64,000 nucleotides of DNA, taken from sequence record PQ462667.1; one strand, 5' to 3'. Both the position numbers and the translations under genes were made by a program. The notes beneath the pieces are model-generated. The model worked only from the letters and a program-made list of their open reading frames with translations. It made no database searches and was not told the DNA's origin. Within the stretch, counting starts at the first letter, position 1; each line of letters starts with the position of its first letter. This document shows positions 1,554 to 31,812 of this stretch, one piece after another. This stretch comes from Escherichia phage HMD-P3.

Positions 1554-1631
1554 TGGTGGCTCCCCGAGGATTCGAACCTACGTACCTTCCGGTTATGAGC
1601 CGGGTGCTCATACCATATGAGCTTGAGAACC
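1554..1631 (-). tRNA. tRNA-Met/Ile2-like (anticodon CAT)
   Basis: Sense GGTTCTC...CCGG-CTCATAA-CCGG...GGTTCGAATCC...GGGAGCC-A-CCA; anticodon loop CUCAUAA; acceptor pairs with two G-U wobbles; T-stem has one bulge. Confidence 0.7.
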
Positions 1632-2532: not shown

Positions 2533-3525
2533 ATGACAGAAGAAGTAGCTAAGAGTCCTGAGACCGTCGCTAGCGTTGCAGCAGAACTGCACCGTCACGA
2601 GGAATCAGATAAGAAAAAGTGGGAGAAGGTCAGAGCCTACGAAGAAAAACATCGTGAACACGATGAAGATGATGAAGAAGATGACGATGATGAACATTGT
2701 CATAAATATGGAAAACATAAAATGCAAGAACCAGTAAACGTATTCACTAGTGGCTTCCCTGGCCTAATGGGCGGTTACCCAGCAAACGCAGGTGCTTTTG
2801 GTGGTGAAGGTATGGGTCTATTCGGAGCTATCCTAATCGGTGCTCTATTAACAGGCGGATTCGGTGGTTTCGGTGGATTCGGTGGACGTGGTGTAGTTGG
2901 TGATGGTAGCGCAGTTGATGCAGTGCTTCAGAATCAAGATACCGCTAGTATTCTAGCAGCTATTAACACTACTCGTACAGAAGCTAATCAGGGTACTGGA
3001 GCTGTTTTAAGCGCAGTTAATAATGGTTTTAGCCAGACATCCCAAAACCAGAGCCGTGATACTCAGTCTGTACTAACTACGATCTATGGTACGGGTGCTA
3101 ATCTGTCTAATCAAATCTGCCAGGAAACTCGCAACGTTATTCAGGGTCAGTTCGATCTTTCTCGCCAGATTGATCAATCTTTCGCAGCTAACCAGATAGC
3201 TCGTGCACAAGATAAGTTTGATTCTGCACAGATCGCTTTCCAGCAGACTTTACAAACTAATAACCAGTTTGCAGCTGTTCAGGCTCAGATGTGTGCTAAC
3301 CAGAACTCTCTGGAACGTCAGATCGCTGAATGTTGCTGTGAACTTCAGACTGCGATCGCTGGTGTAACTACTGCACGTATCCAGGACGAGTTAGACGCAT
3401 GTCGCCTACGTGAAGCAATCGCTGCGGGTAGTGGTGCTAACGGTCAGGTAATTAATCAAATCGCTTTAAGTCTTGGTGCTATCACTCAGACTCTGGCTGG
3501 TCTGCAGGCTAAACTGCCGGCTTAA
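2533..3525 (+). CDS. low-complexity protein: acidic/His-rich N-terminus, glycine-zipper hydrophobic segment, Q/N/A-rich C-terminal domain (about 330 aa from the RBS-supported start)
   Basis: Strong RBS (AGGAGG) 7 nt before ATG at 2533 (the track ORF begins at 2473 without an RBS); segment GLFGAILIGALLTGGFGGFGGFGGRG; CCC and further Cys in the C-terminal part. Confidence 0.55.
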   Translation: MTEEVAKSPETVASVAAELHRHEESDKKKWEKVRAYEEKHREHDEDDEEDDDDEHCHKYGKHKMQEPVNVFTSGFPGLMGGYPANAGAFGGEGMGLFGAILIGALLTGGFGGFGGFGGRGVVGDGSAVDAVLQNQDTASILAAINTTRTEANQGTGAVLSAVNNGFSQTSQNQSRDTQSVLTTIYGTGANLSNQICQETRNVIQGQFDLSRQIDQSFAANQIARAQDKFDSAQIAFQQTLQTNNQFAAVQAQMCANQNSLERQIAECCCELQTAIAGVTTARIQDELDACRLREAIAAGSGANGQVINQIALSLGAITQTLAGLQAKLPA

Positions 3526-3546
3526 TATTAAGGGGAGGAGCCCATT

Positions 3547-3963
3547 ATGAGTAAATATGGTTTTGTAAATAACGGACTTAATCAAAGTATGGGCTCCCAG
3601 CAGCCCATTCCAGGTCTGGATAACCCCTACTTACAACAGTTGCAACAGCGTTTAGCAGAAGCGCAACAGATGCAGCAACAACTCCAGCAAAATCCTAGAA
3701 GTGTGAGTCCTATACAAATGATGCAGCAAATGAGCGGGCAGTCGCAAATGCCTCAACAAATGCAGCAACAGATGCCGCAGCAGCAAGTTCAGCAACAAAC
3801 CCAACAACCGCAGGTTTCTGCGGAAGGACAGGCAGTACTAGCCCTTTTCGAAGACTTCGCAAAGACAGAGGATGGGAAGCAGCTTGTATCACTTATGGGT
3901 AAGTTTAATAGCTTCTGCCAAAGCCAAATTGCAAAAGCTCAAAATAGCGGTGATAACTCCTAA
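3547..3963 (+). CDS. glutamine-rich low-complexity protein (138 aa)
   Basis: RBS GGGGAGG upstream; about 35% Q in the central region (QQMQQQLQQ..., PQQMQQQMPQQQVQQQTQQPQ). Confidence 0.5.
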   Translation: MSKYGFVNNGLNQSMGSQQPIPGLDNPYLQQLQQRLAEAQQMQQQLQQNPRSVSPIQMMQQMSGQSQMPQQMQQQMPQQQVQQQTQQPQVSAEGQAVLALFEDFAKTEDGKQLVSLMGKFNSFCQSQIAKAQNSGDNS

Positions 3964-3972
3964 GGAGGAATT

Positions 3973-4167
3973 ATGTGTTGCAGAAAATCTGTTTCGTGCT
4001 GCCCAATGCCTGTAGCACGTTGTTGCTCTCCAGCAATGTTTACGCAAATACCGGCGTTCAATCCGTTTGCCTTTAAGCCTACTCTTATCCTGCCCCCTAG
4101 AGTAGATTTTCAGTCAAGATTGGCCTCCCGTATGGGTGGTTGCTGTACACCGAGAGTGTGGTTCTAA
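3973..4167 (+). CDS. small cysteine-pair-rich protein (64 aa)
   Basis: RBS AAGGAGG upstream; four CC dipeptides (MCC, SCC, RCC, GCC). Confidence 0.4.
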   Translation: MCCRKSVSCCPMPVARCCSPAMFTQIPAFNPFAFKPTLILPPRVDFQSRLASRMGGCCTPRVWF

Positions 4168-4180
4168 ACCAAAAAACAAA

Positions 4181-4215
4181 AGCCCCTGCCGAAAGGTAAG
4201 GGGCTTTTTCTTTTG
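4181..4215 (+). terminator. rho-independent terminator
   Basis: Stem agcccct/aggggct with 11-nt loop followed by tttttctttt. Confidence 0.65.
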
Positions 4216-5832: not shown

Positions 5833-5914
5833 ATCCAGTTCTTACCGACCATAGGATTCGAACCTACATCTTCCACCAGTTACGGCTTGATAATACCAAT
5901 TATACTAGGACGGC
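5833..5914 (-). tRNA. tRNA-like element (perfect T-arm, imperfect acceptor, anticodon arm not resolved)
   Basis: Sense contains GTAGGTTCGAATCCTAT and acceptor-like GCCGTCC/GGTCGGT with one mismatch; no clean cloverleaf by eye. Could be a divergent or degenerate tRNA. Confidence 0.4.
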
Positions 5915-8946: not shown

Positions 8947-9016
8947 ATTTGTTTTCCTTTTATTGTTTTCTCAAATTTATGAATATATTATACAGAATTT
9001 TGGAGCCGGAAGCAAA

Positions 9017-10009: not shown

Positions 10010-10525
10010 TTACTTCGCTTTACGCTTGCGAGCTGGTTTAGCAGATTTACGAGCAGAATCACCCGTGAACTTAATGCCTACACCGTAACACAGAGCACGA
10101 ACATTATCTTTACTATACTCTACACCAAAGATATTTGGCTTAACAGAACCAAACTGTCCACGAGTATCACGCAATACATCTGCTGTTGGTTTACGCTTCT
10201 GGTTAACTGCCTTCTCATAGTCTTTCATAGACATACCATTACGAGAGAACAATTCAGCCCCAGCGTTGAAGCTCAGGGAAACTGGGACAGATTTGTGGCC
10301 GTAATTTTCTACATACATAACCATTTTGTAGGATTTACGGGTGGCATTTTTAGCTTTAGGCTTCTGACGAATCGGAGCCGGATTATTCAGTGCTTGCGCA
10401 GCCTGAGCATCGGTAGGATGCTTACGCAGGTGACGTTCCAGACGAGCTTTGCGATTAGCCTCAGTCTTCGGGAAAGTTTTAACTGCCGGAGCTGCTTGAG
10501 TTTTTGCGTTTTTCTGCTTAGCCAT
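10010..10525 (-). CDS. hypothetical basic protein (171 aa)
   Basis: Lys/Arg-rich termini; T5-type promoter upstream (about 10548-10606). Confidence 0.5.
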   Translation of the reverse strand: MAKQKNAKTQAAPAVKTFPKTEANRKARLERHLRKHPTDAQAAQALNNPAPIRQKPKAKNATRKSYKMVMYVENYGHKSVPVSLSFNAGAELFSRNGMSMKDYEKAVNQKRKPTADVLRDTRGQFGSVKPNIFGVEYSKDNVRALCYGVGIKFTGDSARKSAKPARKRKAK

Positions 10526-10608
10526 TATTTGTTTTCCTTTTTGTTTATCAATTTATGAAGTATATTATACGAGAATTTGAAGCGTTTAGCAAATGAATTT
10601 TTTAAAAA

Positions 10609-10887
10609 TTATCTACCAACCATCTTAGCTTGTTCGGCATCTGAGACATATTGATACGCCCCTTTATTATACGCTGGAGCAGTACACATTTTCTTACGCT
10701 CAATCTCTTCTTGAGCTTTTCTTTCGCGTTCAGCTAACTCTTCGTCCAGATAAACTAAACGTTGCTCTGGAGGAGGTGGAAGACGTGTTTCTGGCTCACC
10801 AATATTAGCCTTTCTTATTTGACGAGGTGATTGTGCACGTTTTCTCAATGGCTTAAATCCTAATGAATTTGAGTTATAAATCCGCAT
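10609..10887 (-). CDS. hypothetical protein (92 aa)
   Basis: ORF with T5-type promoter upstream (about 10900-10960). Confidence 0.45.
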   Translation of the reverse strand: MRIYNSNSLGFKPLRKRAQSPRQIRKANIGEPETRLPPPPEQRLVYLDEELAERERKAQEEIERKKMCTAPAYNKGAYQYVSDAEQAKMVGR

Positions 10888-20759: not shown

Positions 20760-20794
20760 GCTAATCAGCCGGGTTGCTAGTCGACCTGGCTTTT

Positions 20795-20858
20795 ATTTTA
20801 TTTGCTTTCAGCCAAAAATTTATATATAATAGATTTATAAATTTGAGAGGAGAAAGAT
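20795..20858 (+). promoter_or_regulatory. T5-type early promoter
   Basis: tttatttgctttcagccaaaaatttatatataatagatttataaatttgagaggag, PN25-like. Confidence 0.6.
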
Positions 20859-21239
20859 ATGGAATTAAAGCCCTATATAGTTGAATCTACATGTGGTAGT
20901 TTCCATCTGGGTGTGGATAATATTGCTGAGGCTGTCTTTGCTGCTACAGGTGATTACTCGCATATAGAGGGTGTTGCATACCCTACCATTATTGGCGATT
21001 GGGTGGGAACAAATCTAGATGTATCGCCTTATAACCCATATTGCTTGTTTGATGAAGACAGAGATGAAGTAAAATGTAATCTTGAATTTGTGTATAATAG
21101 AGTGTTAAAAGTGTACCAACGTAGCCCCAATGGGTACGAAGATATTACTTGGAGTATTAAACAGTATCTTAAAGATATATACTCTAGTTTTTCTGACGAA
21201 GACCTAGAAACAGTTGCAGTGGAGTTTAATAATGACTAA
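20859..21239 (+). CDS. hypothetical protein (126 aa)
   Basis: First gene of the operon after the promoter; no CxxxCxxC, so not NrdG. Confidence 0.5.
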   Translation: MELKPYIVESTCGSFHLGVDNIAEAVFAATGDYSHIEGVAYPTIIGDWVGTNLDVSPYNPYCLFDEDRDEVKCNLEFVYNRVLKVYQRSPNGYEDITWSIKQYLKDIYSSFSDEDLETVAVEFNND

Positions 21240-21438
21240 GAATGTGAAACACCTTAAATATCGCTTAATTTACAACGGACGTATGGAAACAGAAGATCTG
21301 GCCCAGTTAGCTATTAATTCTAATGAGGTTACAGTACGCGCGCTGGCAATTGAAAAGTTGCGTGCCTCTTATGAAAATCGTGTTATGGAACTAGAGGAGA
21401 AACTTTATGGCATTCTCGAAGCCGATGCTACCAGATAA
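21214..21438 (+). CDS. hypothetical protein (74 aa)
   Basis: Overlapping start/stop with neighbours. Confidence 0.4.
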   Translation: MQWSLIMTKNVKHLKYRLIYNGRMETEDLAQLAINSNEVTVRALAIEKLRASYENRVMELEEKLYGILEADATR

Positions 21439-21628
21439 GGGTTTAAACGCCGCTTTGGAAAACGCATTAATGCAGCGCTGGGAAACTGGCTATAAGGATG
21501 GTGTTGAATCCTGCGCTACTATGCTAGAAGTTATTGCTAATACCTTAATGGAGAAAGGCAATAAAGAATTAGCTGAGCTATTAGACAGTATTGGGCAAAA
21601 CTTCAGAGAACAGGTGAAAAATGCGTAG
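21407..21628 (+). CDS. hypothetical protein (73 aa)
   Basis: Overlapping start/stop with neighbours. Confidence 0.4.
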   Translation: MAFSKPMLPDKGLNAALENALMQRWETGYKDGVESCATMLEVIANTLMEKGNKELAELLDSIGQNFREQVKNA

Positions 21629-22436
21629 ATTAATTATTATTAGTGGTGCAGGTTTGAGTGTTGAAAGTGGTGTACGAGCTTTTCGTACTGATACTGCTAG
21701 CGGTAAAGCATTGTGGGATGATTATGATCTAGAAGAAGTATGTAATATTCATGCCTTTCGCGGTAATTTTTATCATAAAACCCATATGTTTTACAACAAG
21801 CGTCGTGAAGAACTAAAAACTGTTGAACCCAATCTTGCGCATTTGCGTATTGGTGAATGGTATAAACAATATCCAGGTCAAATAGTAAACTTGACTACCA
21901 ATGTTGATGACCTTATTGAGCGTGCTGGCGTTCCACATAGTGACATTCTGCACATTCACGGATATTTAAAAGAGGTTGTTGTAGCTGATAACTACAATAG
22001 TAGCAATAAACGGATTATTGATGTAGGATACAATTCTATTGATCCAGATGATTATAAATGGGTTAAACCTAATGTAATCTTCTTTGGAGAGCATGCTCCA
22101 GCATATGCGGAGATGTACAATGTTTTTGATGGTATTACCAGTCAAGATATGATCATTGTGGTTGGTTGCTCCAACCAAGTAATTAACTTCTACTGGGAAT
22201 TATTTCCTGTTCTTAATTTGACTGCTGCTAAGCTAATGGTTGTTAACTACTATGATAGTGCCCTAGCGGTGGAACCGGGCTATCAAGGTATGACTCGTAG
22301 TGAGATGTATCAACTGGAAGAACGTGGTATCCCTTACTGGAGTAAAGGTGCGGTAGATGCTTTCAGTGATCCTGATTTTATTGCTCGTGTAGAAGCTCAT
22401 TTAGGGGGTAGACCTTATGTATCAGGAACTAAGTAA
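21621..22436 (+). CDS. Sir2-family NAD-dependent deacylase/ADP-ribosyltransferase-like protein lacking the zinc ribbon
   Basis: Sirtuin motifs in order: GAGLSVESGVRAFR, TTNVDDLIERAG, HIHG, VIFFGE, IIVVGCSNQV; the CxxC...CxxC zinc motif is absent. Confidence 0.8.
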   Translation: MRRLIIISGAGLSVESGVRAFRTDTASGKALWDDYDLEEVCNIHAFRGNFYHKTHMFYNKRREELKTVEPNLAHLRIGEWYKQYPGQIVNLTTNVDDLIERAGVPHSDILHIHGYLKEVVVADNYNSSNKRIIDVGYNSIDPDDYKWVKPNVIFFGEHAPAYAEMYNVFDGITSQDMIIVVGCSNQVINFYWELFPVLNLTAAKLMVVNYYDSALAVEPGYQGMTRSEMYQLEERGIPYWSKGAVDAFSDPDFIARVEAHLGGRPYVSGTK

Positions 22437-22929
22437 TACTCCAATTATTTTTCTAGACATTGATGGGGTGCTCAATTCGAGCATCTCCCACCATCATGCA
22501 CCTGATAATGAAAAGATTTTCTTTGGAAGTGACTGGGTTTTCAAACCGCTTCTCAAGGCTTTTCAGGACTTTATTCGTCCTTCTCCAATAATGATTGTTG
22601 GAGTATCATCTTGGTTCTCTGTCAGAAATGAGATGGAGAACGTTCAGATTATGACCGGATTAGGTCTTATCGATCGCTTTCTTGGTACAACGGATTTTAC
22701 TGGTGGTGGATTATCTAGGGGTAATTCTGTTCTTCGTTTCGTCGAAAAGCATAAGCTCAAACATTGGTGTGTACTTGATGATGCGGGTGCTATGATGTAT
22801 CAGTATCCAACGGTTATAGTCAACGGTAGAACTGGGATAAATCTTCAAGATTTAAAAGCTGTTAGCTATATGCTAGAATTTAGCCCAGATCTTGAAATGT
22901 GTAAATCCTTACAACAATTTAAGGTGTAA
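22417..22929 (+). CDS. HAD-superfamily phosphatase-like protein
   Basis: HAD motif I FLDIDGVLN near the N-terminus and a late acidic motif WCVLDDAG. Confidence 0.5.
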   Translation: MYQELSNTPIIFLDIDGVLNSSISHHHAPDNEKIFFGSDWVFKPLLKAFQDFIRPSPIMIVGVSSWFSVRNEMENVQIMTGLGLIDRFLGTTDFTGGGLSRGNSVLRFVEKHKLKHWCVLDDAGAMMYQYPTVIVNGRTGINLQDLKAVSYMLEFSPDLEMCKSLQQFKV

Positions 22930-22931
22930 AT

Positions 22932-23360
22932 ATGTTCAATAATGTATTCTCTAAAGAAGCTAACCCAATTTTGGTTAACTTTTGGCGTACTCTCCCGGCT
23001 AGCCTGTATAATGAGGCTATTAACTCCTTGAAAATATGGTGTGAGAATAACGAAATCTCTTTTGCTTTTAAAGATGATGTTGATGAGGCCCCTTGTATTG
23101 GTTTAAGTGTGCAGGTAGAGGAGGGTCTTGAAGAGATTGTCGGCTGGAAAGAGTTAGATGAAATGGGCTTAGTTTTTGCGTTAAACTATAAGCTGTTTAT
23201 GCCTGCTAAGCATCGCCTCGTTGTTAACTATAAAACTAGTGAATCTCCTGGTTTTCAGGTTAATGAACGTTATGGTTGGTCTTACTCACCGGAAGAAGTA
23301 AATGAGGGGATTCAGAAACTTCGACGTTTCGGGTATATAATCCCAGGTTTAACTGCTTAA
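22932..23360 (+). CDS. hypothetical protein, paralog A of a tandem pair
   Basis: Shares ...SF-F...D-PCIG...W-EL...GL--ALN...F-P...W-Y-P...L-R-G...PGL with the next ORF. Confidence 0.5.
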   Translation: MFNNVFSKEANPILVNFWRTLPASLYNEAINSLKIWCENNEISFAFKDDVDEAPCIGLSVQVEEGLEEIVGWKELDEMGLVFALNYKLFMPAKHRLVVNYKTSESPGFQVNERYGWSYSPEEVNEGIQKLRRFGYIIPGLTA

Positions 23361-23369
23361 GGAGGCAGA

Positions 23370-23759
23370 ATGGAACAAGTATATTGGCGTCAGATTGACC
23401 CTAGTTTGGTGAAACGTGCGGAGAAGCTGCTACAACGTTGGTTGGGGGTAAGACAAGCCTCCTTTACTTTTCCGGAACAGCAAATAGATGACCCCTGCAT
23501 TGGTGTTTTCCTGTCTGGATATGCCGGGGAATGGGAATTGGATTGGAATGAATTGTCTGCTATGGGCTTGATTGTTGCCCTAAACTTCTCTATATTCCAT
23601 CCACGTGGTTTGGCCATATGTCGTGTGCCGGATGATGGTTGTTCGCCCCATCTTTTACAGGTGGAAGATGATATTTGGGAGTACACTCCAGATATTCTCA
23701 AAGAAGCTAAAGAACAATTAAACCGTGTTGGGATCTATGTTCCGGGGTTAAGTGACTAA
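23370..23759 (+). CDS. hypothetical protein, paralog B of a tandem pair
   Basis: Paralogous to 22932-23360 (conserved PCIG, MGL-ALN, VPGL motifs); hairpin plus T-run downstream. Confidence 0.5.
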   Translation: MEQVYWRQIDPSLVKRAEKLLQRWLGVRQASFTFPEQQIDDPCIGVFLSGYAGEWELDWNELSAMGLIVALNFSIFHPRGLAICRVPDDGCSPHLLQVEDDIWEYTPDILKEAKEQLNRVGIYVPGLSD

Positions 23760-24380
23760 TGATTTTTATTAGCTGAACTCTGATTACCGAGTCATTTTGG
23801 CTCGGTTTTCTCTATGCTCAAGGACACTGATAGCACCTTTGGGAAAATTTTACTTGCAGGATGCCCAAAATCTTGATATAATATTTATATTGAATTGAGA
23901 GACATTAGTAAAAATTGATTTTGCTAATTTTTCTTGTTTACAATCCGCGATACGGAACAGTTAGGCTGCCCCATTAAGGGTTGTTTTAACTGTTACGTGT
24001 TAGTTTTTAAACAAATAATTAATAGAATACTTAGCGATCTACATCCCGTAGGAACCCTGGTAAGGCCTCGAAGCAACCTAGTGTGAGGTGGTTGTGAAGT
24101 GAGACGGGAAGAGTGAAAAACTCTGAGAAGTGATGACGTAAGGTATACTGCATCTAGTATGAGCTAGTATATGAAGCATTAGGTGAGCAAATCTGGCTTA
24201 GCGGCCATCCTCAAGGATTTGTGCGGTATAGTGAAGCGGCAGTGTAGCGTGAAAGGGGAAGTTGCCACCCCCCTTCAGTATTTGCGATTAATTGTTGAGA
24301 AATTGACAGTAACAGTTGTTCTATTCTTTCTGAATAGTCCTAAAGAAAACTTATTTCATTTCCAACACAGGAGTATTGTT

Positions 24381-27170
24381 GTGTTCTCAATCCTACAAGG
24401 TCATGCAGGATTTCATCGCGATTTAGCCACAGGCAATTGGCGGGAAGTTAAAGCAGAAAACTATCTTTTTGCTAAAAGATTTTCCTCAAAGCATCCTGAA
24501 GGTAAACCAGCTTCAATGCCCTTCAAGTTTGATGTAATTGATGAAGTTGATCCTCAAACCCTAGTAGAAATGCTCCCTCTTATGAGACGTTTAACGTCTG
24601 ACCCTCATATCGTTGCGGTACGAGGTCGATGTCTTGCACCTAAAAATAATGTGCGACGTAAGAAGGGCAACTTTAATGTATCTAACCCAAGTCATATAAT
24701 TGCAATGGACGTGGATGGTATTGTAGATACAGGTGGTTGTAACAAGTTTGATCTTGTTGGCATGGCTCGACATATTATTAGAATGTTAAATAGTATTAGT
24801 GAGGATATGTTTCCTCTTGATGCAGGGTTTATCGCTCATGCATCGTCTTCGGCTGGGCTAAAACCAGGTATCCGAATGCACTTAATACTAGAATCTAATG
24901 TTAAAGTAACTCAGGGTCAAATCAAATTCTTATTTACATCTATCAACGAAAGTAGTAGACAAAAGTATGGCTTTGATATTGCCGACTTAGCTTATTACTC
25001 TTCCGTACAGCTCCATTATTTTGCAGATCCGTTATTTACTGATGGTATAGTAGATCCGTTTAAAGCGGAGGGTGCTTCACGTCTGGTATTTGTTAAGGGT
25101 TCTAAGGTAAACTTACCCAATAATCTGGTTGATTATGAAACAACTAGAGGTGAGTTTAAAGAGGAGTTTTACTCTTTACTCGACCAAATTAAGGGTAAAA
25201 AAGCTGCCTCTGATAAAGTAGAGGAAACTATCAGCGAACTAGAAGAAGCTGAGGATGGAGTGTACCTACGTATCATACCTAAACTCTATCACAGAGCTTT
25301 AGAGGATGGTGTTGATTTTGCGTGGCTAGAAAAAGAAATCCGTCCAGCCTTATCAGAATATATTGCAACTAAAGATAATAGTCGTAATATTCAAGATTAC
25401 TTTAATAACGGTCGTAAACAGGCTCTGAAAGCGTTTGTTAATAATTCTAAACGCGATATACCTGATGTTTTAAAAGGTATTCCACTTAAAAAGCTAGAAA
25501 CTAATTCTTTAGAAACTGATAACTTCTTGAAATTAAATACTGTACCACCAGAAGGTTATATGACTTTTGTAAAAGCAAGTCTAGGTACAGGTAAAACTAC
25601 GGCGGTTGTGCGTTGGTTAGATTCAGGAGTTATTAAGGGTAATTTCTTAGCAATTACCAATACTCGAGCACTGGTATCTTCAAATGCTAAGAAATTTAGT
25701 GCAGGACAATATGATAAGTCTGTAGATATGCTTAATTTTAAGCGTGGCGCTATTGACCGTATGTCCACAACTATTCACTCTTTGCATAAGTTCAAGAGTT
25801 TTATTGGTCAAATCGATGCAATCTTTATCGATGAATGTGATGCTGTAATGAATGACCTATTATTCGCCCCGGTTGTTAAACAACGTCGTGAATGTATTCA
25901 GGTTCTTCGGGATATTCTTGCAACTGCAAAAATCATTATATTATCTGATGGGGATATTAGTGCTGAAACAATTGAAGCATATGGTTCTTTGATTGAGTTT
26001 GATAAACCGGTTGCATTTTATAATCACCACCGTAAGATGCTGTCAAAAGCTCATGCTTATGAATTCCCTGATGAATCCAGTATTTGGGTTGCACTTCAGA
26101 CTTCTCTAGAGATGGGTGAGAAGTCTATCCTAGTATCTGACTGTGGTCCAGATGAACTGAATGAGAAGGGTATGGCATTGCGTCGTAATACGGGTGCGTT
26201 AGTTAAGGAAATCCACTCAAACTCTACGTCTGATGTAGATATTCGACGTATTCTGGATTACACAACTAATGAGCTAATTGACCAACAAATTGATTGCTTA
26301 TTATGTAGTCCATCCGTAACGAGTGGTGTTGACTTTAACTATTTTGATAACGTATTCGTTATCACTAGAACCTCAAACCAAGCGCCAAACATGCGTTTTC
26401 AAGCAATCAGGCGCGACCGTGGCGCTCAGAACATTTATTATTTTATTGATAAATCTACGAGTGGATTCTCCGCAGGTTCTGAACAATATAACATTGATGA
26501 AGGTTGGCTGGAGTTAGCACAGCAATTATACGCACGTCGTAGGGAGCTGGAATCTAGGAACTATACTAGTACTTTACGTTATTACTTGCTTGATCAGGGT
26601 GCAACTATTGATATTTTCAGTGAAAGCTGGGGAACTATCGAAGGTGCAGGAAAAGAGTATACGGAAGAGCGAATCAAAGCTATTTTGTATTCAACTCCTG
26701 ATTATTGTGCTCCACGCCATGCAGATGCGTATGAGGCTAAACTACTTCTTGTTCGCTATTATCATCTTGAGTCTATTAAAGATGTAACAGTTGAGCACGT
26801 TGAACAATATATCAAGGATAAACCGAATGATCGAGCTGCATTCTTCCATAAGATGCACGAGATGTTCTGGGAAGATATTAAGAAGTGTTCAAATGTCACT
26901 ATCAAACCATTCATAGAAGCTCTGAAAGGTAAGAAGAAAGATTTCTTCCTTAAAACAGGTCAGAGTGCTAACCCAAAATATGCAAGAATGTATCTTGGTA
27001 TGATGGGTATTGGTAAGGATATGAACACTGAAAATATTGTAGACTGGTACAGAACCTATTGTAAAATCGAGTGTATGCCAATCCCGTATAAGTTTATGAC
27101 TGATGAGGAGAAACATATGCATGATGAAGCAATGGCAGAGCTAGGTGCTAGAAATGACAGTGAAGAATAA
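24381..27170 (+). CDS. putative replication initiator / origin-binding P-loop NTPase (helicase-like), about 929 aa
   Basis: Walker A FVKASLGTGKTTAV and Walker B IFIDECDAV in the central region. The track ORF begins at 24183, but the first 66 codons have atypical codon usage and no RBS; an in-frame GTG at 24381 follows ACAGGAG by 8 nt. Start is uncertain. Confidence 0.55.
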   Translation: MFSILQGHAGFHRDLATGNWREVKAENYLFAKRFSSKHPEGKPASMPFKFDVIDEVDPQTLVEMLPLMRRLTSDPHIVAVRGRCLAPKNNVRRKKGNFNVSNPSHIIAMDVDGIVDTGGCNKFDLVGMARHIIRMLNSISEDMFPLDAGFIAHASSSAGLKPGIRMHLILESNVKVTQGQIKFLFTSINESSRQKYGFDIADLAYYSSVQLHYFADPLFTDGIVDPFKAEGASRLVFVKGSKVNLPNNLVDYETTRGEFKEEFYSLLDQIKGKKAASDKVEETISELEEAEDGVYLRIIPKLYHRALEDGVDFAWLEKEIRPALSEYIATKDNSRNIQDYFNNGRKQALKAFVNNSKRDIPDVLKGIPLKKLETNSLETDNFLKLNTVPPEGYMTFVKASLGTGKTTAVVRWLDSGVIKGNFLAITNTRALVSSNAKKFSAGQYDKSVDMLNFKRGAIDRMSTTIHSLHKFKSFIGQIDAIFIDECDAVMNDLLFAPVVKQRRECIQVLRDILATAKIIILSDGDISAETIEAYGSLIEFDKPVAFYNHHRKMLSKAHAYEFPDESSIWVALQTSLEMGEKSILVSDCGPDELNEKGMALRRNTGALVKEIHSNSTSDVDIRRILDYTTNELIDQQIDCLLCSPSVTSGVDFNYFDNVFVITRTSNQAPNMRFQAIRRDRGAQNIYYFIDKSTSGFSAGSEQYNIDEGWLELAQQLYARRRELESRNYTSTLRYYLLDQGATIDIFSESWGTIEGAGKEYTEERIKAILYSTPDYCAPRHADAYEAKLLLVRYYHLESIKDVTVEHVEQYIKDKPNDRAAFFHKMHEMFWEDIKKCSNVTIKPFIEALKGKKKDFFLKTGQSANPKYARMYLGMMGIGKDMNTENIVDWYRTYCKIECMPIPYKFMTDEEKHMHDEAMAELGARNDSEE

Positions 27171-27387: not shown

Positions 27388-27452
27388 AAATTTATTTGCT
27401 TTCAGGAAAATTTTTCTGTATAATAGATTTATAAATTTGAGAGAGGAGTTTA
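27383..27452 (+). promoter_or_regulatory. T5 early promoter, near-identical to PN25
   Basis: aaaatttatttgctttcaggaaaatttttctgtataatagatttataaatttgagagaggagtt matches my recollection of T5 PN25 with very few differences. Confidence 0.75.
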
Positions 27453-27455
27453 AAT

Positions 27456-28160
27456 ATGGCTGGTTCTCGTAGAAAGAAACACATTCATGAAATCCCGGAT
27501 GAAGTCTTTAAAAAGGTTATAGAGCATCTGGAGAACGGTGGTACTAAGAAAGCAGCATGTGAAATGCTCGGCGTATCGTCCAATCCAACTATGGAAAGGA
27601 TGATTGAAGAATGGCAAGACCGCCAGATCCAAGTTGCCGAAATGAAGAAAAAGAAACGTGGCACACTTATTGAAGGCATCGAGTTAGCTAACGTTATTGA
27701 GCAGTATTTATCTGGTGATTCTTTTGAAGAAATTGCCGATCGTAATTATCGCTCTGTAGCAATGGTTAAATCTGTTCTGGAACGATACGGTGCTCTACTT
27801 CGTTTGAATGATATTGTAGATCCATTGAATCCTCCGATTATTCCTGATGATGCTGTAGCAGAAGAATTTGCAGTTGGTGAACTTGTTTGGGTTCCTGGAT
27901 ACCAGTGTATCGGTGAAATCAAAAAAGCAATGGATAATCCTGTTGGTTGCTACCGTGTATGGCTTCTATCAGAAGGCAAACAACAGAACGTCCATTATAT
28001 GAATTACGAGCTGGCTTCTGTTAAACATCTGGAAAAGTTAGGGGTAGACGTAAAATCTCTGGGGTATAAATGGACTCGTGAAGAAATTATTACGTTGATT
28101 AACGAAGCTGTTAAGGCTGCCCTGAAACTTGATAAAGAAAAAGGAAAACGCCGTGAGTAA
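27456..28160 (+). CDS. DNA-binding protein with N-terminal HTH (possibly T5 D5-like)
   Basis: N-terminal IEHLENGGTKKAACEMLGVSSNPTMERMIEEW resembles an HTH; downstream of the PN25-like promoter. Confidence 0.5.
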   Translation: MAGSRRKKHIHEIPDEVFKKVIEHLENGGTKKAACEMLGVSSNPTMERMIEEWQDRQIQVAEMKKKKRGTLIEGIELANVIEQYLSGDSFEEIADRNYRSVAMVKSVLERYGALLRLNDIVDPLNPPIIPDDAVAEEFAVGELVWVPGYQCIGEIKKAMDNPVGCYRVWLLSEGKQQNVHYMNYELASVKHLEKLGVDVKSLGYKWTREEIITLINEAVKAALKLDKEKGKRRE

Positions 28161-29676: not shown

Positions 29677-29866
29677 TATGAACATAACACTTCCAAAAAT
29701 TCAAGCAAAGTTAAACCTAGTATCAACTGCTAGAAATAACTATCTAGATAACTTTGGTGGAATCAACGATAAAGCGTACAAAGATGCGTGGTTGAAAGAA
29801 GCGCAAGAGTTAGCCGATCTCACTACTCAGTATAGTAAAGAACTACAGGTAGAAATGAATGACTAA
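29660..29866 (+). CDS. hypothetical protein (68 aa)
   Basis: ORF immediately upstream of, and overlapping, the ligase N-fragment. Confidence 0.4.
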   Translation: MMRGSIMNITLPKIQAKLNLVSTARNNYLDNFGGINDKAYKDAWLKEAQELADLTTQYSKELQVEMND

Positions 29867-30830
29867 TGTAAAAGACTTTATTAAACGTTGTCAAGAAGCA
29901 TATTACCAGGGAATGTCTTTAATCTCTGACGAAGAATATGATCGTCTGATTAAAAGATTTCCGTTAGAAGAAGAGATCGGGCCTAAGGGTGATATTCCAC
30001 ATCTGTATCGTATGTATTCTTTACAGAAAGTTTATTATAATCGTGGAGATAAACCTCCGTTTAACCCATTAGGTCAGGTAGAAACTGATAAGTTAGATGG
30101 TTGTGCGATTTCTCTGTTATATATTAATGGCGAATTTGTTCAAGCACTAACTCGTGGTAATGGTATTCTAGGGAACGATGTCACAAGCAACGTAAGATTG
30201 CTGAACATTCCTAAAAAGATTTCCCAAAAAGTACCTACTCAAATCACTGGTGAAGTTCTAATTACAAAAGAAGTAGAAAATAAACGTAACTTTGCCTCTG
30301 GTGCTATTAACCTCAAAGATAGTGATGATTTCGTACAGCGTATCGGAGAAGGTGGTTTAATCTTCGTTGCATACGGTATCCAGTGTTCTGGTGAATCTGT
30401 AGGTATTACAGAAACGTATTTAAAAGATATGCTTTGGCTAGAGAATGAGAACTTCTTAACAGTTGTTAATGTGCGTTCCTTCTTTAAGTGGATTCCAACG
30501 GATGGTAAAGTTGTTCGTATTAATGACAACAACAAATTCTTCCGAGAAGGCTGGACTAATAAATTTCCTCGTGGAGCATTCGCTATTAAAGAGGATGAAG
30601 AAGGTGAGATTACTACTCTTACTAAAGTTGAATGGCAGGTAGGGGCTTCTGGTAAAGTAACTCCAGTTGGTTATTTCGAACCGGTAATTATTGATGATGC
30701 TACAATTGTTAAGGCGACTCTTAATAACGTTGATTATATTAACTCTCTCGATCTAGAGATCGGTTGCCAGATTCGAGTAATTCGTGCTGGTGGTGTAATC
30801 CCGTGCATAGTAGAGCGAGTATACGATTAA
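29859..30830 (+). CDS. ligA: NAD-dependent DNA ligase, N-terminal fragment (adenylation + OB domains)
   Basis: EEYDRLIKRF, adenylation lysine motif KLDGCAISLLY, TRGNGILGNDVTSNV and an OB-domain tail align to bacterial LigA. Confidence 0.85.
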   Translation: MTNVKDFIKRCQEAYYQGMSLISDEEYDRLIKRFPLEEEIGPKGDIPHLYRMYSLQKVYYNRGDKPPFNPLGQVETDKLDGCAISLLYINGEFVQALTRGNGILGNDVTSNVRLLNIPKKISQKVPTQITGEVLITKEVENKRNFASGAINLKDSDDFVQRIGEGGLIFVAYGIQCSGESVGITETYLKDMLWLENENFLTVVNVRSFFKWIPTDGKVVRINDNNKFFREGWTNKFPRGAFAIKEDEEGEITTLTKVEWQVGASGKVTPVGYFEPVIIDDATIVKATLNNVDYINSLDLEIGCQIRVIRAGGVIPCIVERVYD

Positions 30831-31029: not shown

Positions 31030-31812
31030 TTGATGAAAATCGAAATTCCAATACAATGTCCCTCTTGTGGTTCTAAGCTAGATCTTGTCAACGGACAATT
31101 ATTCTGTCGGAATAAGTCCAACTGTCCAGCGCAATCAAGTAAGTTAATTGAGAACTTCTGTACAAAAATGAAGTTAAAGGGCTTTGGCCCAAAAACTATT
31201 GAGAAGCTGGAGCTGACGAAGATTTCAGAACTATTCTACCTAACCGAAGAAGATTTGGTTAGAGCCGTGGGTAGCAAGGTTGCCGCTAAATTAATTAGCG
31301 AATTAAATACTAAAGTTCGCGGAGACATTGACTTTGGTTCAGTTCTCGGTTCTTTAGGAATCCCTCTAATTGGAGAGGTTGCAGCAAAGAAATTATCCCA
31401 AAATTGCACTAGCTTCCACGATGTGAAGGCTGACGGCAAGGCTGGAGAAAACTATAAAACCTGGCTAAATTCCCCACAAGGCAAGGATGTTATTGAATTA
31501 CCGTGGAAATTCTCAACTGGTATCAGAGGTGCAAAAGCTAATATTATCATTACAGATGAATTAGTTGCCCAGCCAAACGGAATCGCGGTATGTATTACCG
31601 GATCTTTGCAAGATTTTGCAAATCGAACGGATGCAACAAACTATTTAGAAAGTCTAGGATATACGGTTAAGAAATCCGTTACCAAAGACGTCAAATACCT
31701 AATCTGTGAGGATGAATCAAAACGTTCTTCCTCATCTTATAAGAAAGCCGAAACGAATGGGATAGAAATCCTGTCGATTAAAGAACTATTGGAGAAAAAT
31801 AATAATGTCTAA
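31030..31812 (+). CDS. ligB: NAD-dependent DNA ligase, C-terminal fragment (Zn finger, HhH, BRCT)
   Basis: CPSCGSKLDLVNGQLFCRNKSNCPAQ (LigA Cys4 zinc finger), helix-hairpin-helix segment, BRCT-like ICITGSL...; separated from the N-fragment by a 199-bp gap carrying promoters. Confidence 0.85.
   Translation: MMKIEIPIQCPSCGSKLDLVNGQLFCRNKSNCPAQSSKLIENFCTKMKLKGFGPKTIEKLELTKISELFYLTEEDLVRAVGSKVAAKLISELNTKVRGDIDFGSVLGSLGIPLIGEVAAKKLSQNCTSFHDVKADGKAGENYKTWLNSPQGKDVIELPWKFSTGIRGAKANIIITDELVAQPNGIAVCITGSLQDFANRTDATNYLESLGYTVKKSVTKDVKYLICEDESKRSSSSYKKAETNGIEILSIKELLEKNNNV

What the first reader, a model, noticed from the sequence alone, without database searches (positions are those of the whole stretch)
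20795..23760. Operon coupling a zinc-ribbon-less Sir2 protein with a HAD-like phosphatase and two tandem paralogs
Seven translationally coupled genes follow a PN25-like promoter immediately after nrdD. The Sir2-family protein keeps the NAD-binding/catalytic motifs (GAGLSVESGVRAFR, TTNVDDL, HG, VIFFGE) but has no CxxC...CxxC zinc motif. It is directly followed by a HAD-like protein (FLDIDGVLN ... VLDDAG) and two clearly paralogous ~130-140 aa proteins (shared PCIG, MGL-ALN, VPGL motifs). Sir2 domains are NAD-consuming effectors in several bacterial defence systems; a phage-encoded Sir2 with a phosphatase partner could act on NAD/ADP-ribose metabolism, host-protein deacylation or counter-defence. 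The function of this module is, to my knowledge, not established.
Basis: partly seen in the sequence, partly recalled or inferred. Interest (0 to 1): 0.55.

Follow-up and report, generated by a model that had tools for sequence, protein, structure and literature searches.

The report
Known T5-family sirtuin–phosphatase early operon
This is the conserved early operon of T5-like phages (orthologous to T5.100-T5.107), encoding a zinc-less CobB-like sirtuin, an RNA-repair-type HAD phosphatase and two DUF7415 proteins; it is real and biochemically untested, but it is already annotated and a 2022 paper already proposed an RNA-repair role for it.

Summary
Seven tightly packed + strand genes (20859-23759) lie between a terminator plus PN25-like promoter and a downstream terminator. 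They encode three small unknowns, a 271-aa Sir2, a 170-aa HAD phosphatase (Pfam HAD_SAK_2) and two paralogous DUF7415 proteins.

The window is a T5-like phage, and the operon is orthologous to T5.100-T5.107 (Sir2 94% identical). The Sir2 is a class III, CobB/SIRT5-like sirtuin. Its NAD, catalytic and Y-x-x-R residues are intact, and no CxxC occurs in any of 120 clade members. It matches no defence-system model.

The sirtuin plus "Swiss-army-knife" HAD neighbourhood was already described by Iyer et al. 2022, with phage SP15 as type. They proposed KptA/Tpt1-like removal of RNA 2'-phosphates. I found no experimental test.

New details:
- Sir2 is the hypervariable cassette of the operon.
- Sugarlandvirus keeps Sir2 and both DUF7415 genes but lacks the HAD.
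- DUF7415 has no solved structural relative. Elsewhere it sits beside nrdD or rnlA, or is fused to nucleotide kinase or pyrophosphatase domains.
- I found no RNA ligase in the T5-like DNA I scanned.

Verdict: already known and of moderate interest. RNA-end repair (about 0.35) and protein deacylation (about 0.3) remain close rivals.

The parts
20767..20791 (+). Intrinsic terminator of nrdD, directly upstream of the operon promoter
   Evidence: A 10-bp stem followed by a T run. It is annotated as a terminator at the orthologous place in T5 and Lindwurm.
20802..20830 (+). PN25-like T5 early promoter (-35 TTGCTT, 17-nt spacer, -10 TATAAT); orthologue of T5P31
   Evidence: The sequence is shown. 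The T5 annotation calls it 'putative early promoter T5P31'. The core motif occurs 3 times in the window against 0.01 expected.
20859..21239 (+). g1, 126-aa protein of unknown function (T5.100 orthologue, 92% identical)
   Evidence: ORF. It matches phrog_11748 at 5e-72, function unknown. There is no Pfam, NCBIfam or PADLOC hit. Epseptimavirus has an unrelated ORF in its place (28% identity).
21232..21438 (+). g2, 68-aa protein of unknown function
   Evidence: The ATG overlaps the g1 stop by 8 nt. It matches phrog_5236 at 7.5e-46. The same start is annotated in Lindwurm.
21407..21628 (+). g3, 73-aa protein of unknown function
   Evidence: It matches phrog_5827 at 2.7e-30 and is annotated in Lindwurm. 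It is not annotated in the two T5 records.
21621..22436 (+). Zinc-less class III (CobB/SIRT5-like) sirtuin of a phage-specific clade (T5.102 orthologue)
   Evidence: It matches Pfam SIR2 at 86.8 bits against a cut-off of 24. Its best solved relative is CobB 1s5p, at 1.8e-17 with the single sequence and 2e-27 with the clade profile. The AF2 model has pLDDT 90.2, and its best fold match is CobB with TM 0.85. No CxxC occurs in 120 homologues.
22417..22929 (+). HAD-superfamily phosphatase of the 'Swiss Army Knife RNA repair' type (T5.105 orthologue)
   Evidence: It matches Pfam PF18143 HAD_SAK_2 at 72.1 bits against a cut-off of 27.5, covering the whole profile. Four motifs are conserved across the seven full-length members aligned: DIDGVLN, SSW, GGG..R and (L/I)DD; the truncated MP1 row lacks the first and reads IED at the fourth.
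22932..23360 (+). DUF7415 protein a (T5.106 orthologue)
   Evidence: It matches Pfam PF24187 at 6.2e-37 with two matched stretches. It is a paralogue of the next gene, E 1e-20.
23370..23759 (+). DUF7415 protein b (T5.107 orthologue)
23786..23806 (+). Intrinsic terminator closing the operon
   Evidence: A 9-bp stem followed by a T run. It is annotated as a terminator in T5 and Lindwurm.

Best explanation
**Identity (near certain).** This is the conserved early operon of T5-like phages, orthologous to T5.100-T5.107. It is transcribed from a strong PN25-type early promoter.

**Mechanism (inferred, about one chance in three).** The sirtuin is an NAD+-consuming ADP-ribosyl-transferring enzyme that works on phosphorylated RNA ends.
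1. It would transfer ADP-ribose from NAD+ onto an RNA 2'-phosphate. Such phosphates are left when 2',3'-cyclic-phosphate ends, made by host anticodon nucleases or toxin RNases, are opened.
2. [quoted passage not shown]
3. The HAD phosphatase would either trim terminal RNA phosphates or dephosphorylate the ADP-ribose phosphate by-product.
4. Sealing would have to be done by a host ligase, because I found no phage RNA ligase in the T5-like DNA I scanned.

This is the hypothesis of Iyer et al. 2022. The two DUF7415 proteins would be non-catalytic accessory or adaptor subunits of unknown role.

**Shown:** gene order, domain identities and intact catalytic motifs.
**Inferred:** the substrate, every reaction step, and any role for DUF7415.
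For: **Orthology.**
- The DNA is 95-97% identical to many Tequintavirus genomes.
- The proteins are 91-99% identical to T5's.

**Context of close sirtuin homologues.**
- Homologues 56-62% identical sit in RNA-healing and sealing operons in Vequintavirinae.
- In JES2013 the order is RNA ligase, cREC, Sir2, MazG, with a P-loop kinase and a metallophosphoesterase next door.
- In KB57 the order is phosphoesterase, RNA ligase, cREC, kinase, Sir2.
- Sirtuins are as similar between the two phage families as within Demerecviridae, and they are swapped as cassettes. This argues for one shared activity.

**The HAD partner.**
- It belongs to the Pfam family defined on RNA-repair proteins, and its catalytic motifs are intact.
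- In Aeromonas phage PX29 its homologue lies three genes upstream of RNA ligase rnlA. A single-domain DUF7415 gene immediately follows rnlA there.

**Literature.** The published analysis reaches the same reading and names the SP15 type. SP15 carries this module.

**Chemistry (my own reasoning).** In the sirtuin reaction an oxygen nucleophile attacks NAD+ C1', and then a His-activated ribose hydroxyl attacks. This is formally parallel to the two Tpt1 steps summarised in PMC11417386.
Against: - I found no RNA ligase, polynucleotide kinase, cREC or CCA-adding homologue. I searched the 64-kb window and 46 kb of the related phage Lindwurm with single-sequence phmmer at E<=10.
- Sugarlandvirus keeps Sir2 and both DUF7415 genes but has no HAD within 3.5 kb on either side of Sir2.
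- The residues lining the CobB acyl-lysine pocket are conserved or conservatively replaced: A76->C41, Y92->Y58, R95->R61, I131->V95, V187->V152. This fits a lysine-deacylase tunnel better than access for a bulky RNA end.
- HAD homologues also occur in non-RNA contexts. One lies directly upstream of Prs-like and NAMPT-like NAD-salvage genes in phage ChuuTotoro.
- DUF7415 also occurs in temperate-phage early regions with no Sir2 nearby.
- All support is by genomic association. I found no biochemical or genetic test.
Confidence: 0.35

Rival explanations
1. The sirtuin is what it is annotated as: a CobB-like NAD+-dependent protein lysine deacylase (deacetylase or desuccinylase). Made early, it would reset the acylation state of host or phage proteins, for example metabolic, transcription or replication enzymes. 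The HAD and DUF7415 genes would be merely co-transcribed, or would handle O-acyl-ADP-ribose or nucleotide by-products.
For: - The closest characterised relatives by sequence and fold are CobB, Sir2Af and SIRT5.
- The NAD-binding GAG.S and SG.R.FR motifs, N94/D96 and H113 are invariant.
- The class III Y-x-x-R pair that binds acidic acyl groups is invariant (Y58, R61). It aligns to CobB Y92/R95, which I fixed using the Y92A mutant row of 6rxs.
- The other acyl-pocket positions are conservatively kept.
- The three-stranded sheet of the zinc module is still predicted with high confidence. The loss of Cys therefore need not change the fold.
Against: - The protein scores far below the curated CobB equivalog cut-offs: 90 bits against 320, and 99 against 243.
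- All four zinc ligands are lost across the whole clade.
- The GTS..V.P peptide-clamp motif reads GCSNQVINF.
- Linkage to RNA-end-processing genes recurs in independent phage lineages, which would be unexplained.
- Sir2 is the fastest-diverging gene of the operon, which is unusual for a housekeeping-type deacylase.
Confidence: 0.3
2. The module acts on small NAD+/ADP-ribose-derived molecules rather than macromolecules. Sir2 would cleave or transfer from NAD+ or an NAD-derived immune signal or toxin, and the HAD would remove a phosphate from the product (ADP-ribose phosphates, NMN-like compounds). The effect would be to feed NAD+ recycling or to blunt NAD-based defences.
For: - A HAD homologue (39% identical) is the gene directly upstream of Prs-like and NAMPT-like genes in Serratia phage ChuuTotoro. 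From my own knowledge of Osterman et al. 2024, that pair has the form of the NARP1 NAD+-reconstitution pathway.
- Phage KB57 carries the same pair about 4 kb from its Sir2 cluster, and a NADAR gene about 5 kb away on the other side.
- T5-like phages are known to carry NAD+-restoring modules such as NARP3 (PMC13464706).
- This phage also encodes an NAD+-dependent DNA ligase, so its NAD+ supply matters.
- The high variability of Sir2 fits a gene caught in a host-phage conflict.
Against: - No Macro, Nudix, NADAR or NAD-salvage gene is adjacent in this window.
- The conserved acyl/anion pocket suggests a defined macromolecular or acyl substrate.
- An NAD+-consuming enzyme seems counter-productive against NAD+-depleting defences.
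- There is no similarity to known anti-Thoeris or anti-CBASS proteins by Pfam or PHROG name.
Confidence: 0.15
3. The seven genes are not one functional system. They share a promoter, but DUF7415 (and perhaps the HAD) belong to deoxynucleotide metabolism with the neighbouring nrdD, nrdAB, frd and td genes. Sir2 would be an independent mobile cassette.
For: - Single-domain DUF7415 genes lie between nrdD and nrdG in two T4-like genera.
- The domain is fused to a thymidylate-kinase domain and to a dATP/dGTP pyrophosphohydrolase domain in other proteins.
- In T5-like phages the operon follows nrdD.
- Sir2 is exchanged independently of its neighbours: 74% identity against 99-100% for the flanks between two Epseptimavirus genomes.
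- T5 has extra ORFs inserted between Sir2 and the HAD.
Against: - The order Sir2 then two DUF7415 genes is kept from Tequintavirus to Sugarlandvirus, even though nrdD identity there is only 62%.
- Sir2-HAD adjacency is kept through cassette replacement of Sir2.
- DUF7415 also lies next to RNA ligase, a Nudix gene or terminase genes, so its nrdD link is not exclusive.
Confidence: 0.15

Closest known systems
Phage sirtuin-centred RNA-repair neighbourhoods of Iyer, Burroughs, Anantharaman and Aravind 2022 (Viruses 14:1977, PMC9503650), type 3 'Escherichia phage SP15'
   Same: It is the same module. SP15 is a T5-like phage whose HAD is 96% identical and whose DUF7415-a is 92% identical to the window's. 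The sirtuin is next to a Swiss-army-knife-type HAD phosphatase.
   Different: - The text of that paper that I read does not mention the two DUF7415 genes, the three small leader ORFs, the loss of the zinc ligands, or the hypervariability of Sir2.
- Its figure 5f could not be viewed.
- The proposed activity is untested.
E. coli CobB / human SIRT5 (class III sirtuins, NAD+-dependent lysine deacylases)
   Same: - They are the best sequence and fold matches: 1s5p scores 1.8e-17 by sequence, and Foldseek gives TM 0.85.
- The NAD-binding motifs, the catalytic His, the Asn/Asp pair and the Y-x-x-R pair are shared.
   Different: - Identity is only about 25%.
- All zinc-binding Cys residues are lost.
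- The protein is far below the CobB equivalog cut-offs.
- It has a C-terminal extension.
- Its gene context is phage early genes and RNA-end enzymes rather than acetyl-CoA metabolism.
Tpt1/KptA RNA 2'-phosphotransferase
   Same: Only the proposed chemistry is shared: NAD+-dependent removal of an RNA 2'-phosphate through an ADP-ribosylated intermediate.
   Different: - The fold is unrelated: ART-type against a Rossmann-fold sirtuin.
- Pfam returns no other family for this protein even at E<=1, so no Tpt1/KptA-family match.
- The comparison is about how it might work, not about membership.
Vequintavirinae (V5/Mydo-type) RNA ligase-cREC-kinase-sirtuin-MazG clusters
   Same: The sirtuins belong to the same clade, at 58-61% identity to the window's Sir2. 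Both are early, tightly packed operons.
   Different: - Those phages supply the ligase, kinase, cREC and metallophosphoesterase.
- The T5-like module has none of these. It has a HAD and DUF7415 instead.
Defence-associated SIR2 NADases (ThsA, DSR1/2, SIR2-HerA, SIR2-APAZ/pAgo)
   Same: Both have a Sir2-superfamily Rossmann domain without a zinc ribbon, and both consume NAD+.
   Different: - No PADLOC defence model matches at E<=0.01.
- All of the listed top structural matches are deacylase-type sirtuins.
- The protein has no sensor or partner domain.
- It is encoded by a lytic phage in an early operon.
T4 Pnkp (HAD-type 3'-phosphatase) plus Rnl1 tRNA repair pathway
   Same: Both would use a HAD-superfamily phosphatase, with a DxDxV/T nucleophile motif, against host anticodon nucleases. 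This rests on the family assignment and on my own knowledge of T4 Pnkp.
   Different: - No sequence match to any solved structure was found, at E<=10.
- There is no kinase domain.
- No ligase was found in the T5-like DNA I scanned.

Membership tests
Sirtuin / Sir2 superfamily (Pfam PF02146) | Profile score above the curated gathering threshold over the whole catalytic domain | tested here: met
   The score is 86.8 bits against a cut-off of 24, covering residues 9-187 and profile positions 1-178 of 180.
Sirtuin / Sir2 superfamily | NAD+-binding GAG.S and SG.R.FR loop, the (T/Q)N.D motif, and the catalytic His in HG | tested here: met
   G9, A10, G11, S13, S16, G17, F21, R22, N94, D96, H113 and G114 are invariant in 50 clade members. 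They align to the same CobB motifs.
Sirtuin / Sir2 superfamily (classical deacylases) | Four-Cys zinc ribbon (CxxC...CxxC) in the small domain | tested here: not met
   None of 120 homologues contains a CxxC. The only widely conserved Cys residues are C41 and C183. The three-stranded sheet of the module is still predicted.
Class III sirtuins (SIRT5/CobB type) | Y-x-x-R pair that binds acidic acyl groups | tested here: met
   Y58 and R61 are invariant. They align to CobB Y92 and R95. I fixed the position using the Y92A row of 6rxs.
CobB protein deacylase (NCBIfam equivalogs NF040867 and NF001755; subfamily NF001753) | Score above the curated cut-off | tested here: not met
   The scores are 89.6 against 320, 76.5 against 318, and 99.4 against 243 bits.
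CobB protein deacylase | NAD+-dependent removal of acyl groups from lysine | not testable with these tools
   This needs an enzyme assay.
Defence-associated SIR2 effectors (PADLOC models) | Match to a ThsA, DSR, SIR2-HerA or pAgo-associated SIR2 profile | tested here: not met
   None of the seven proteins gives a PADLOC hit at E<=0.01.
HAD phosphatases, HAD_SAK_2 family (PF18143) | Profile score above the gathering threshold | tested here: met
   The score is 72.1 bits against a cut-off of 27.5, covering profile positions 1-138 of 139.
HAD phosphatases | Motif I DxDx(T/V) nucleophile, motif II S/T, motif III basic residue, motif IV acidic pair | tested here: met
   The conserved motifs are LDIDGVLN, V(G/I/L)(V/I)SSW, (G/T)GGG..R and (L/I)DD. 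They hold in the seven full-length homologues aligned, from five phage groups. The MP1 row lacks the first motif because its annotated start is truncated, and it reads IED at the fourth.
Phage sirtuin RNA-repair neighbourhood, SP15 type (Iyer et al. 2022) | Sirtuin of the phage clade in a conserved neighbourhood with a SAK-like HAD phosphatase | tested here: met
   The two genes overlap by 20 nt. SP15 carries orthologues.
Phage sirtuin RNA-repair neighbourhood | Actual RNA 2'-phosphate or end-processing activity | not testable with these tools
   This is only a published prediction. I found no assay in the literature.
Tpt1/KptA RNA 2'-phosphotransferase | Homology to the Tpt1/KptA phosphotransferase family | tested here: not met
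   Pfam lists only SIR2 for this protein, even at E<=1. The fold is CobB-like.
DUF7415 (PF24187) | Profile score above the gathering threshold | tested here: met
   The two proteins score 126 and 111.6 bits against a cut-off of 27, with two matched stretches in each.
T5 early promoters (PN25 family) | TTGCTT -35, 17-nt spacer, TATAAT -10, with the conserved flanking TTTATT...TAGATT.ATAAATTTGAG context | tested here: met
   The sequence is shown. The core occurs 3 times in the window against 0.01 expected. The orthologous site is annotated as T5P31. Promoter activity itself was not tested.

The most novel reading that the evidence does not exclude
The T5-family sirtuin would not be a protein deacylase. 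It would be the first sirtuin-fold enzyme that works on nucleic-acid phosphates, or on acylated or phosphorylated tRNA ends. With the HAD phosphatase and the two DUF7415 proteins it would form a four-protein machine. The DUF7415 proteins have a fold with no solved relative and would act as substrate adaptors. The machine would heal RNA damaged by host immune RNases and hand the ends to a host ligase. The rapid cassette turnover of Sir2 would reflect an arms race with host factors that sense or inhibit it.
Probability: 0.25. Interest if true: 0.7.

Novelty: already known. Interest (0 to 1): 0.3.

Why it matters
- **Prevalence.** Homologues of this sirtuin are found in about 1,000 of the 50,697 phage records searched, including the model phage T5. 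No assay of its activity turned up in the literature I could search.
- **If the RNA-repair prediction is right.** It would add a new reaction class to sirtuins, convergent with Tpt1, and a new phage counter-measure to RNase-based immunity.
- **If it is a deacylase.** It would show that phages rewrite the host acylome.
- **Tractability.** T5 is genetically tractable, and assays for both activities exist.
- **Caveat.** The question was already posed in print in 2022, so this finding restates an open problem rather than discovering one.

Tried and rejected
- **Defence-type SIR2 NADase.** Rejected: there is no PADLOC match, and the fold is CobB-like.
- **A solved relative of the HAD.** None was found at E<=10.
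- **A phage RNA ligase, kinase, cREC, MazG or CCA-adding enzyme in T5-like DNA.** None was found. I used single-sequence phmmer, so very remote homologues could be missed. The structural-gene half of the genome was only partly covered.
- **DUF7415 in the V5-like Sir2 clusters.** Absent within 6 kb.
- **Pfam, PHROG, NCBIfam and PADLOC hits for g1-g3.** Only function-unknown PHROGs matched.
- **Rfam families in or beside the operon.** None was found.
- **Literature.** Searches for T5.100-T5.107 by name, for DUF7415 and for HAD_SAK_2 returned nothing.
- **The 'Sir2 (x2)' annotation in many GenBank records.** I considered that it might mean a split sirtuin. It does not. phrog_18062, labelled Sir2, matches the C-terminal half of the HAD protein.

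Full report
**What is there**

The window is a T5-like phage (Demerecviridae).
- The 3-kb region is 95-97% identical at the DNA level to many Tequintavirus genomes. 185 phage records cover at least 80% of it.
- The encoded proteins are 91-99% identical to those of phage T5.

Seven + strand ORFs fill 20859-23759.
- Junctions are -8, -32, -8, -20, +2 and +9 nt, and each start has a Shine-Dalgarno-like run.
- Upstream lie the nrdD stop (20759), a terminator hairpin (20767-20791) and a promoter with TTGCTT, a 17-nt spacer and TATAAT at 20802-20830.
- The orthologous T5 site is annotated as early promoter T5P31.
- An exact copy of the PN25 core lies at 27396-27429. The operon promoter is therefore a paralogue, and 'PN25-like' is correct.
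- A terminator at 23786-23806 closes the unit.

In T5 the genes are T5.100 to T5.107. Two extra small ORFs, T5.103 and T5.104, lie between the sirtuin and the phosphatase there. The direct abutment seen in this window is thus one variant among several.

**The sirtuin**

Family and fold:
- The 271-aa protein matches Pfam SIR2 well above threshold.
- Its best solved relatives by sequence are E. coli CobB, archaeal Sir2Af and SIRT5 (profile search).
- An AlphaFold2 model built on 50 clade members has mean pLDDT 90.2.
- The model superposes best on CobB (TM 0.85 normalised to the target), then on Sir2Af, SIRT5, Sir2Tm and SIRT2.

Conserved residues:
- The NAD-binding and catalytic residues are invariant in the clade, including N94, D96 and H113.
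- The class III Y-x-x-R pair, Y58 and R61, is also invariant.
- I anchored the alignment on engineered CobB mutants in the PDB, namely the Y92A, A76G, I131C and V187Y rows. This places phage Y58, C41, V95 and V152 at the positions lining the CobB acyl pocket.

Departures from CobB:
- None of 120 homologues contains a CxxC, yet the three-stranded sheet of the former zinc module is still confidently predicted.
- The protein falls far below the curated CobB equivalog thresholds.
- It matches no defence-system profile.

It is therefore a member of the sirtuin superfamily with class III character. It is not a CobB equivalog and not a defence-type SIR2.

**The phosphatase and the paralogues**

- The 170-aa protein covers the whole HAD_SAK_2 profile, described by Pfam as 'HAD domain in Swiss Army Knife RNA repair proteins'.
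- It keeps the four HAD motifs in an alignment of relatives from five phage groups.
- No solved structure matches it by sequence.
- The two downstream proteins are true paralogues: 32% identity, E 1e-20.
- Both match DUF7415, with two matched stretches each.
The conserved positions are mostly hydrophobic or aromatic, plus E61 and N72, which gives no obvious catalytic signature.

**What is already published**

- Iyer, Burroughs, Anantharaman and Aravind (Viruses 2022, PMC9503650, section 3.7.3) describe a 'distinct clade' of phage sirtuins in three conserved neighbourhoods.
[quoted passage not shown] - They propose that these sirtuins act like KptA/Tpt1, removing 2'-phosphates from RNA ends. 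The linked enzymes would open cyclic phosphates or process the ADP-ribose cyclic phosphate product.
- SP15 is a T5-like phage carrying this very module.
- Genome announcements also note the sirtuin, for example for phage Sugarland.
- I found no biochemical or genetic test in the searchable library.

The module and a mechanistic hypothesis are therefore already known. The function is not.

**Evidence gathered here on the hypothesis**

In favour:
- In Vequintavirinae, sirtuins 58-61% identical to the window's lie in packed operons. The orders are RNA ligase, cREC, Sir2, MazG in one phage, and phosphoesterase, RNA ligase, cREC, kinase, Sir2 in another.
- Sirtuins are as similar between the two phage families as within Demerecviridae.
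- In Aeromonas phage PX29 a HAD homologue lies three genes upstream of RNA ligase rnlA. A single-domain DUF7415 gene directly follows rnlA, and a tRNA nucleotidyltransferase gene lies about 2 kb downstream.

Against:
- I found no RNA ligase, kinase, cREC or CCA-enzyme homologue in the window or in 46 kb of the relative Lindwurm. Sealing would have to rely on the host.
- Sugarlandvirus keeps Sir2 and both DUF7415 genes but has no HAD within the 3.5-kb flanks.
- The conserved acyl-lysine pocket fits a deacylase.
- A HAD homologue in Serratia phage ChuuTotoro sits directly upstream of Prs-like and NAMPT-like NAD-salvage genes. That points to ADP-ribose or NAD metabolism.

**DUF7415 in other phages**

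- A profile search shows that the widely shared core is residues about 56-110.
- It occurs as a small stand-alone protein between nrdD and nrdG in two T4-like genera.
- It also occurs beside a Nudix gene and beside terminase genes.
- It is fused to a thymidylate-kinase domain or to a dATP/dGTP pyrophosphohydrolase domain in other proteins. One such fusion lies in a temperate-phage early region.
- Nucleotide kinase and MazG-type pyrophosphatase are also the enzyme classes that flank the sirtuin in V5-like phages. This indirect link is suggestive only.

**A further observation**

Sir2 is the hypervariable gene of the operon.
- Between two Epseptimavirus genomes, nrdD, the HAD and both DUF7415 proteins are 98.6-100% identical, while Sir2 is 73.9% identical.
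- Between this window and Epseptimavirus the values are nrdD 98%, HAD 90%, DUF7415 73-76% and Sir2 61%.
- This indicates cassette replacement or diversifying selection at Sir2, with its position next to the HAD preserved.

**Verdict**

The parts are right and the function is indeed untested. However, the module is already annotated and already has a published hypothesis, and the comparison with defence NADases is not apt.
- My ranking is: NAD+-dependent RNA-end processing about 0.35; CobB-like protein deacylation about 0.30; small-molecule NAD/ADP-ribose metabolism or counter-defence about 0.15; functionally unlinked co-transcribed genes about 0.15.
- Novelty is 'already known' and interest is moderate to low (0.3). 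The open question is real and directly testable in T5.

Noticed in passing
window 27396-27429 (+), also 8982-9015 (-): An exact copy of the PN25 promoter core as I recall it (TTGCTTTCAGGAAAATTTTTCTGTATAATAGATT) lies upstream of the ORF at 27456-28160, which has only a sub-threshold HTH_28 match. A third, 3-mismatch copy lies on the minus strand. Three copies are found against 0.01 expected. The operon promoter at 20802 is thus one member of a repeated early-promoter family.
   Followed up: partly
window 21621-22436, compared with loci L013 and L018: Sir2 is far more divergent than its neighbours. Between two Epseptimavirus genomes it is 74% identical, while nrdD, the HAD and both DUF7415 proteins are 99-100% identical. 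This suggests cassette exchange or diversifying selection at the sirtuin.
   Followed up: partly
window 22417-22929 (HAD), residues 79-170: PHROG family phrog_18062 is labelled 'Sir2 (NAD-dependent deacetylase)', but it matches the C-terminal half of the HAD protein at 6e-58. This probably explains why many GenBank records list two 'Sir2' genes here. DUF7415 proteins are also mislabelled 'tail tube protein' or 'exonuclease' in some records.
   Followed up: yes
window 23807-24381 (+): A gap of about 575 nt separates the operon terminator from the likely start of the replication-origin-binding gene. That start is placed by the Lindwurm annotation; the long GTG ORF from 24183 is probably over-extended. 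The gap holds the T5P32-like promoter and a leader of about 475 nt. The leader folds only modestly better than shuffles (z -2.1) and has no Rfam match. Its role is unexplained.
   Followed up: partly
window 29859-30830 and 31030-31812 (+): The NAD+-dependent DNA ligase is split into two genes: an adenylation plus OB part, and an HhH plus BRCT part. The phage thus has a second NAD+-consuming enzyme about 8 kb from the sirtuin.
   Followed up: no
window 1557-1631 (-) and 5843-5914 (-): Rfam's tRNA model finds two more tRNA-like genes, at 40 and 34 bits, that ARAGORN did not report.
   Followed up: no
window about 10525-10610 (-), compared with Lindwurm L008 6393-6842: Lindwurm has a 149-aa gene annotated 'N-glycosidase' downstream of its RNase H gene, between a 94-aa ORF and the DUF7022 gene; from my own knowledge that label usually marks a NADAR/YbiA-type protein, though I did not scan it. 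No ORF of that size lies at the same place in this window. This NAD/ADP-ribose-related gene therefore seems to be variably present in T5-like phages.
   Followed up: no
locus L015 (Serratia phage ChuuTotoro) 3980-7196: A HAD_SAK_2-type homologue of the window's phosphatase (39% identical) is translationally coupled to Prs-like and NAMPT-like genes. That pair resembles the NARP1 NAD+-reconstitution pathway. This hints that the phosphatase family handles ADP-ribose phosphates.
   Followed up: no
loci L005 (KPV15) 3980-4213 and L011 (PSTRCR_121) 3453-3848: Single-domain DUF7415 genes are wedged between nrdD and nrdG in two T4-like genera. This echoes the position of the T5 operon right after nrdD. 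A link between this domain and anaerobic ribonucleotide reduction is possible and untested.
   Followed up: partly
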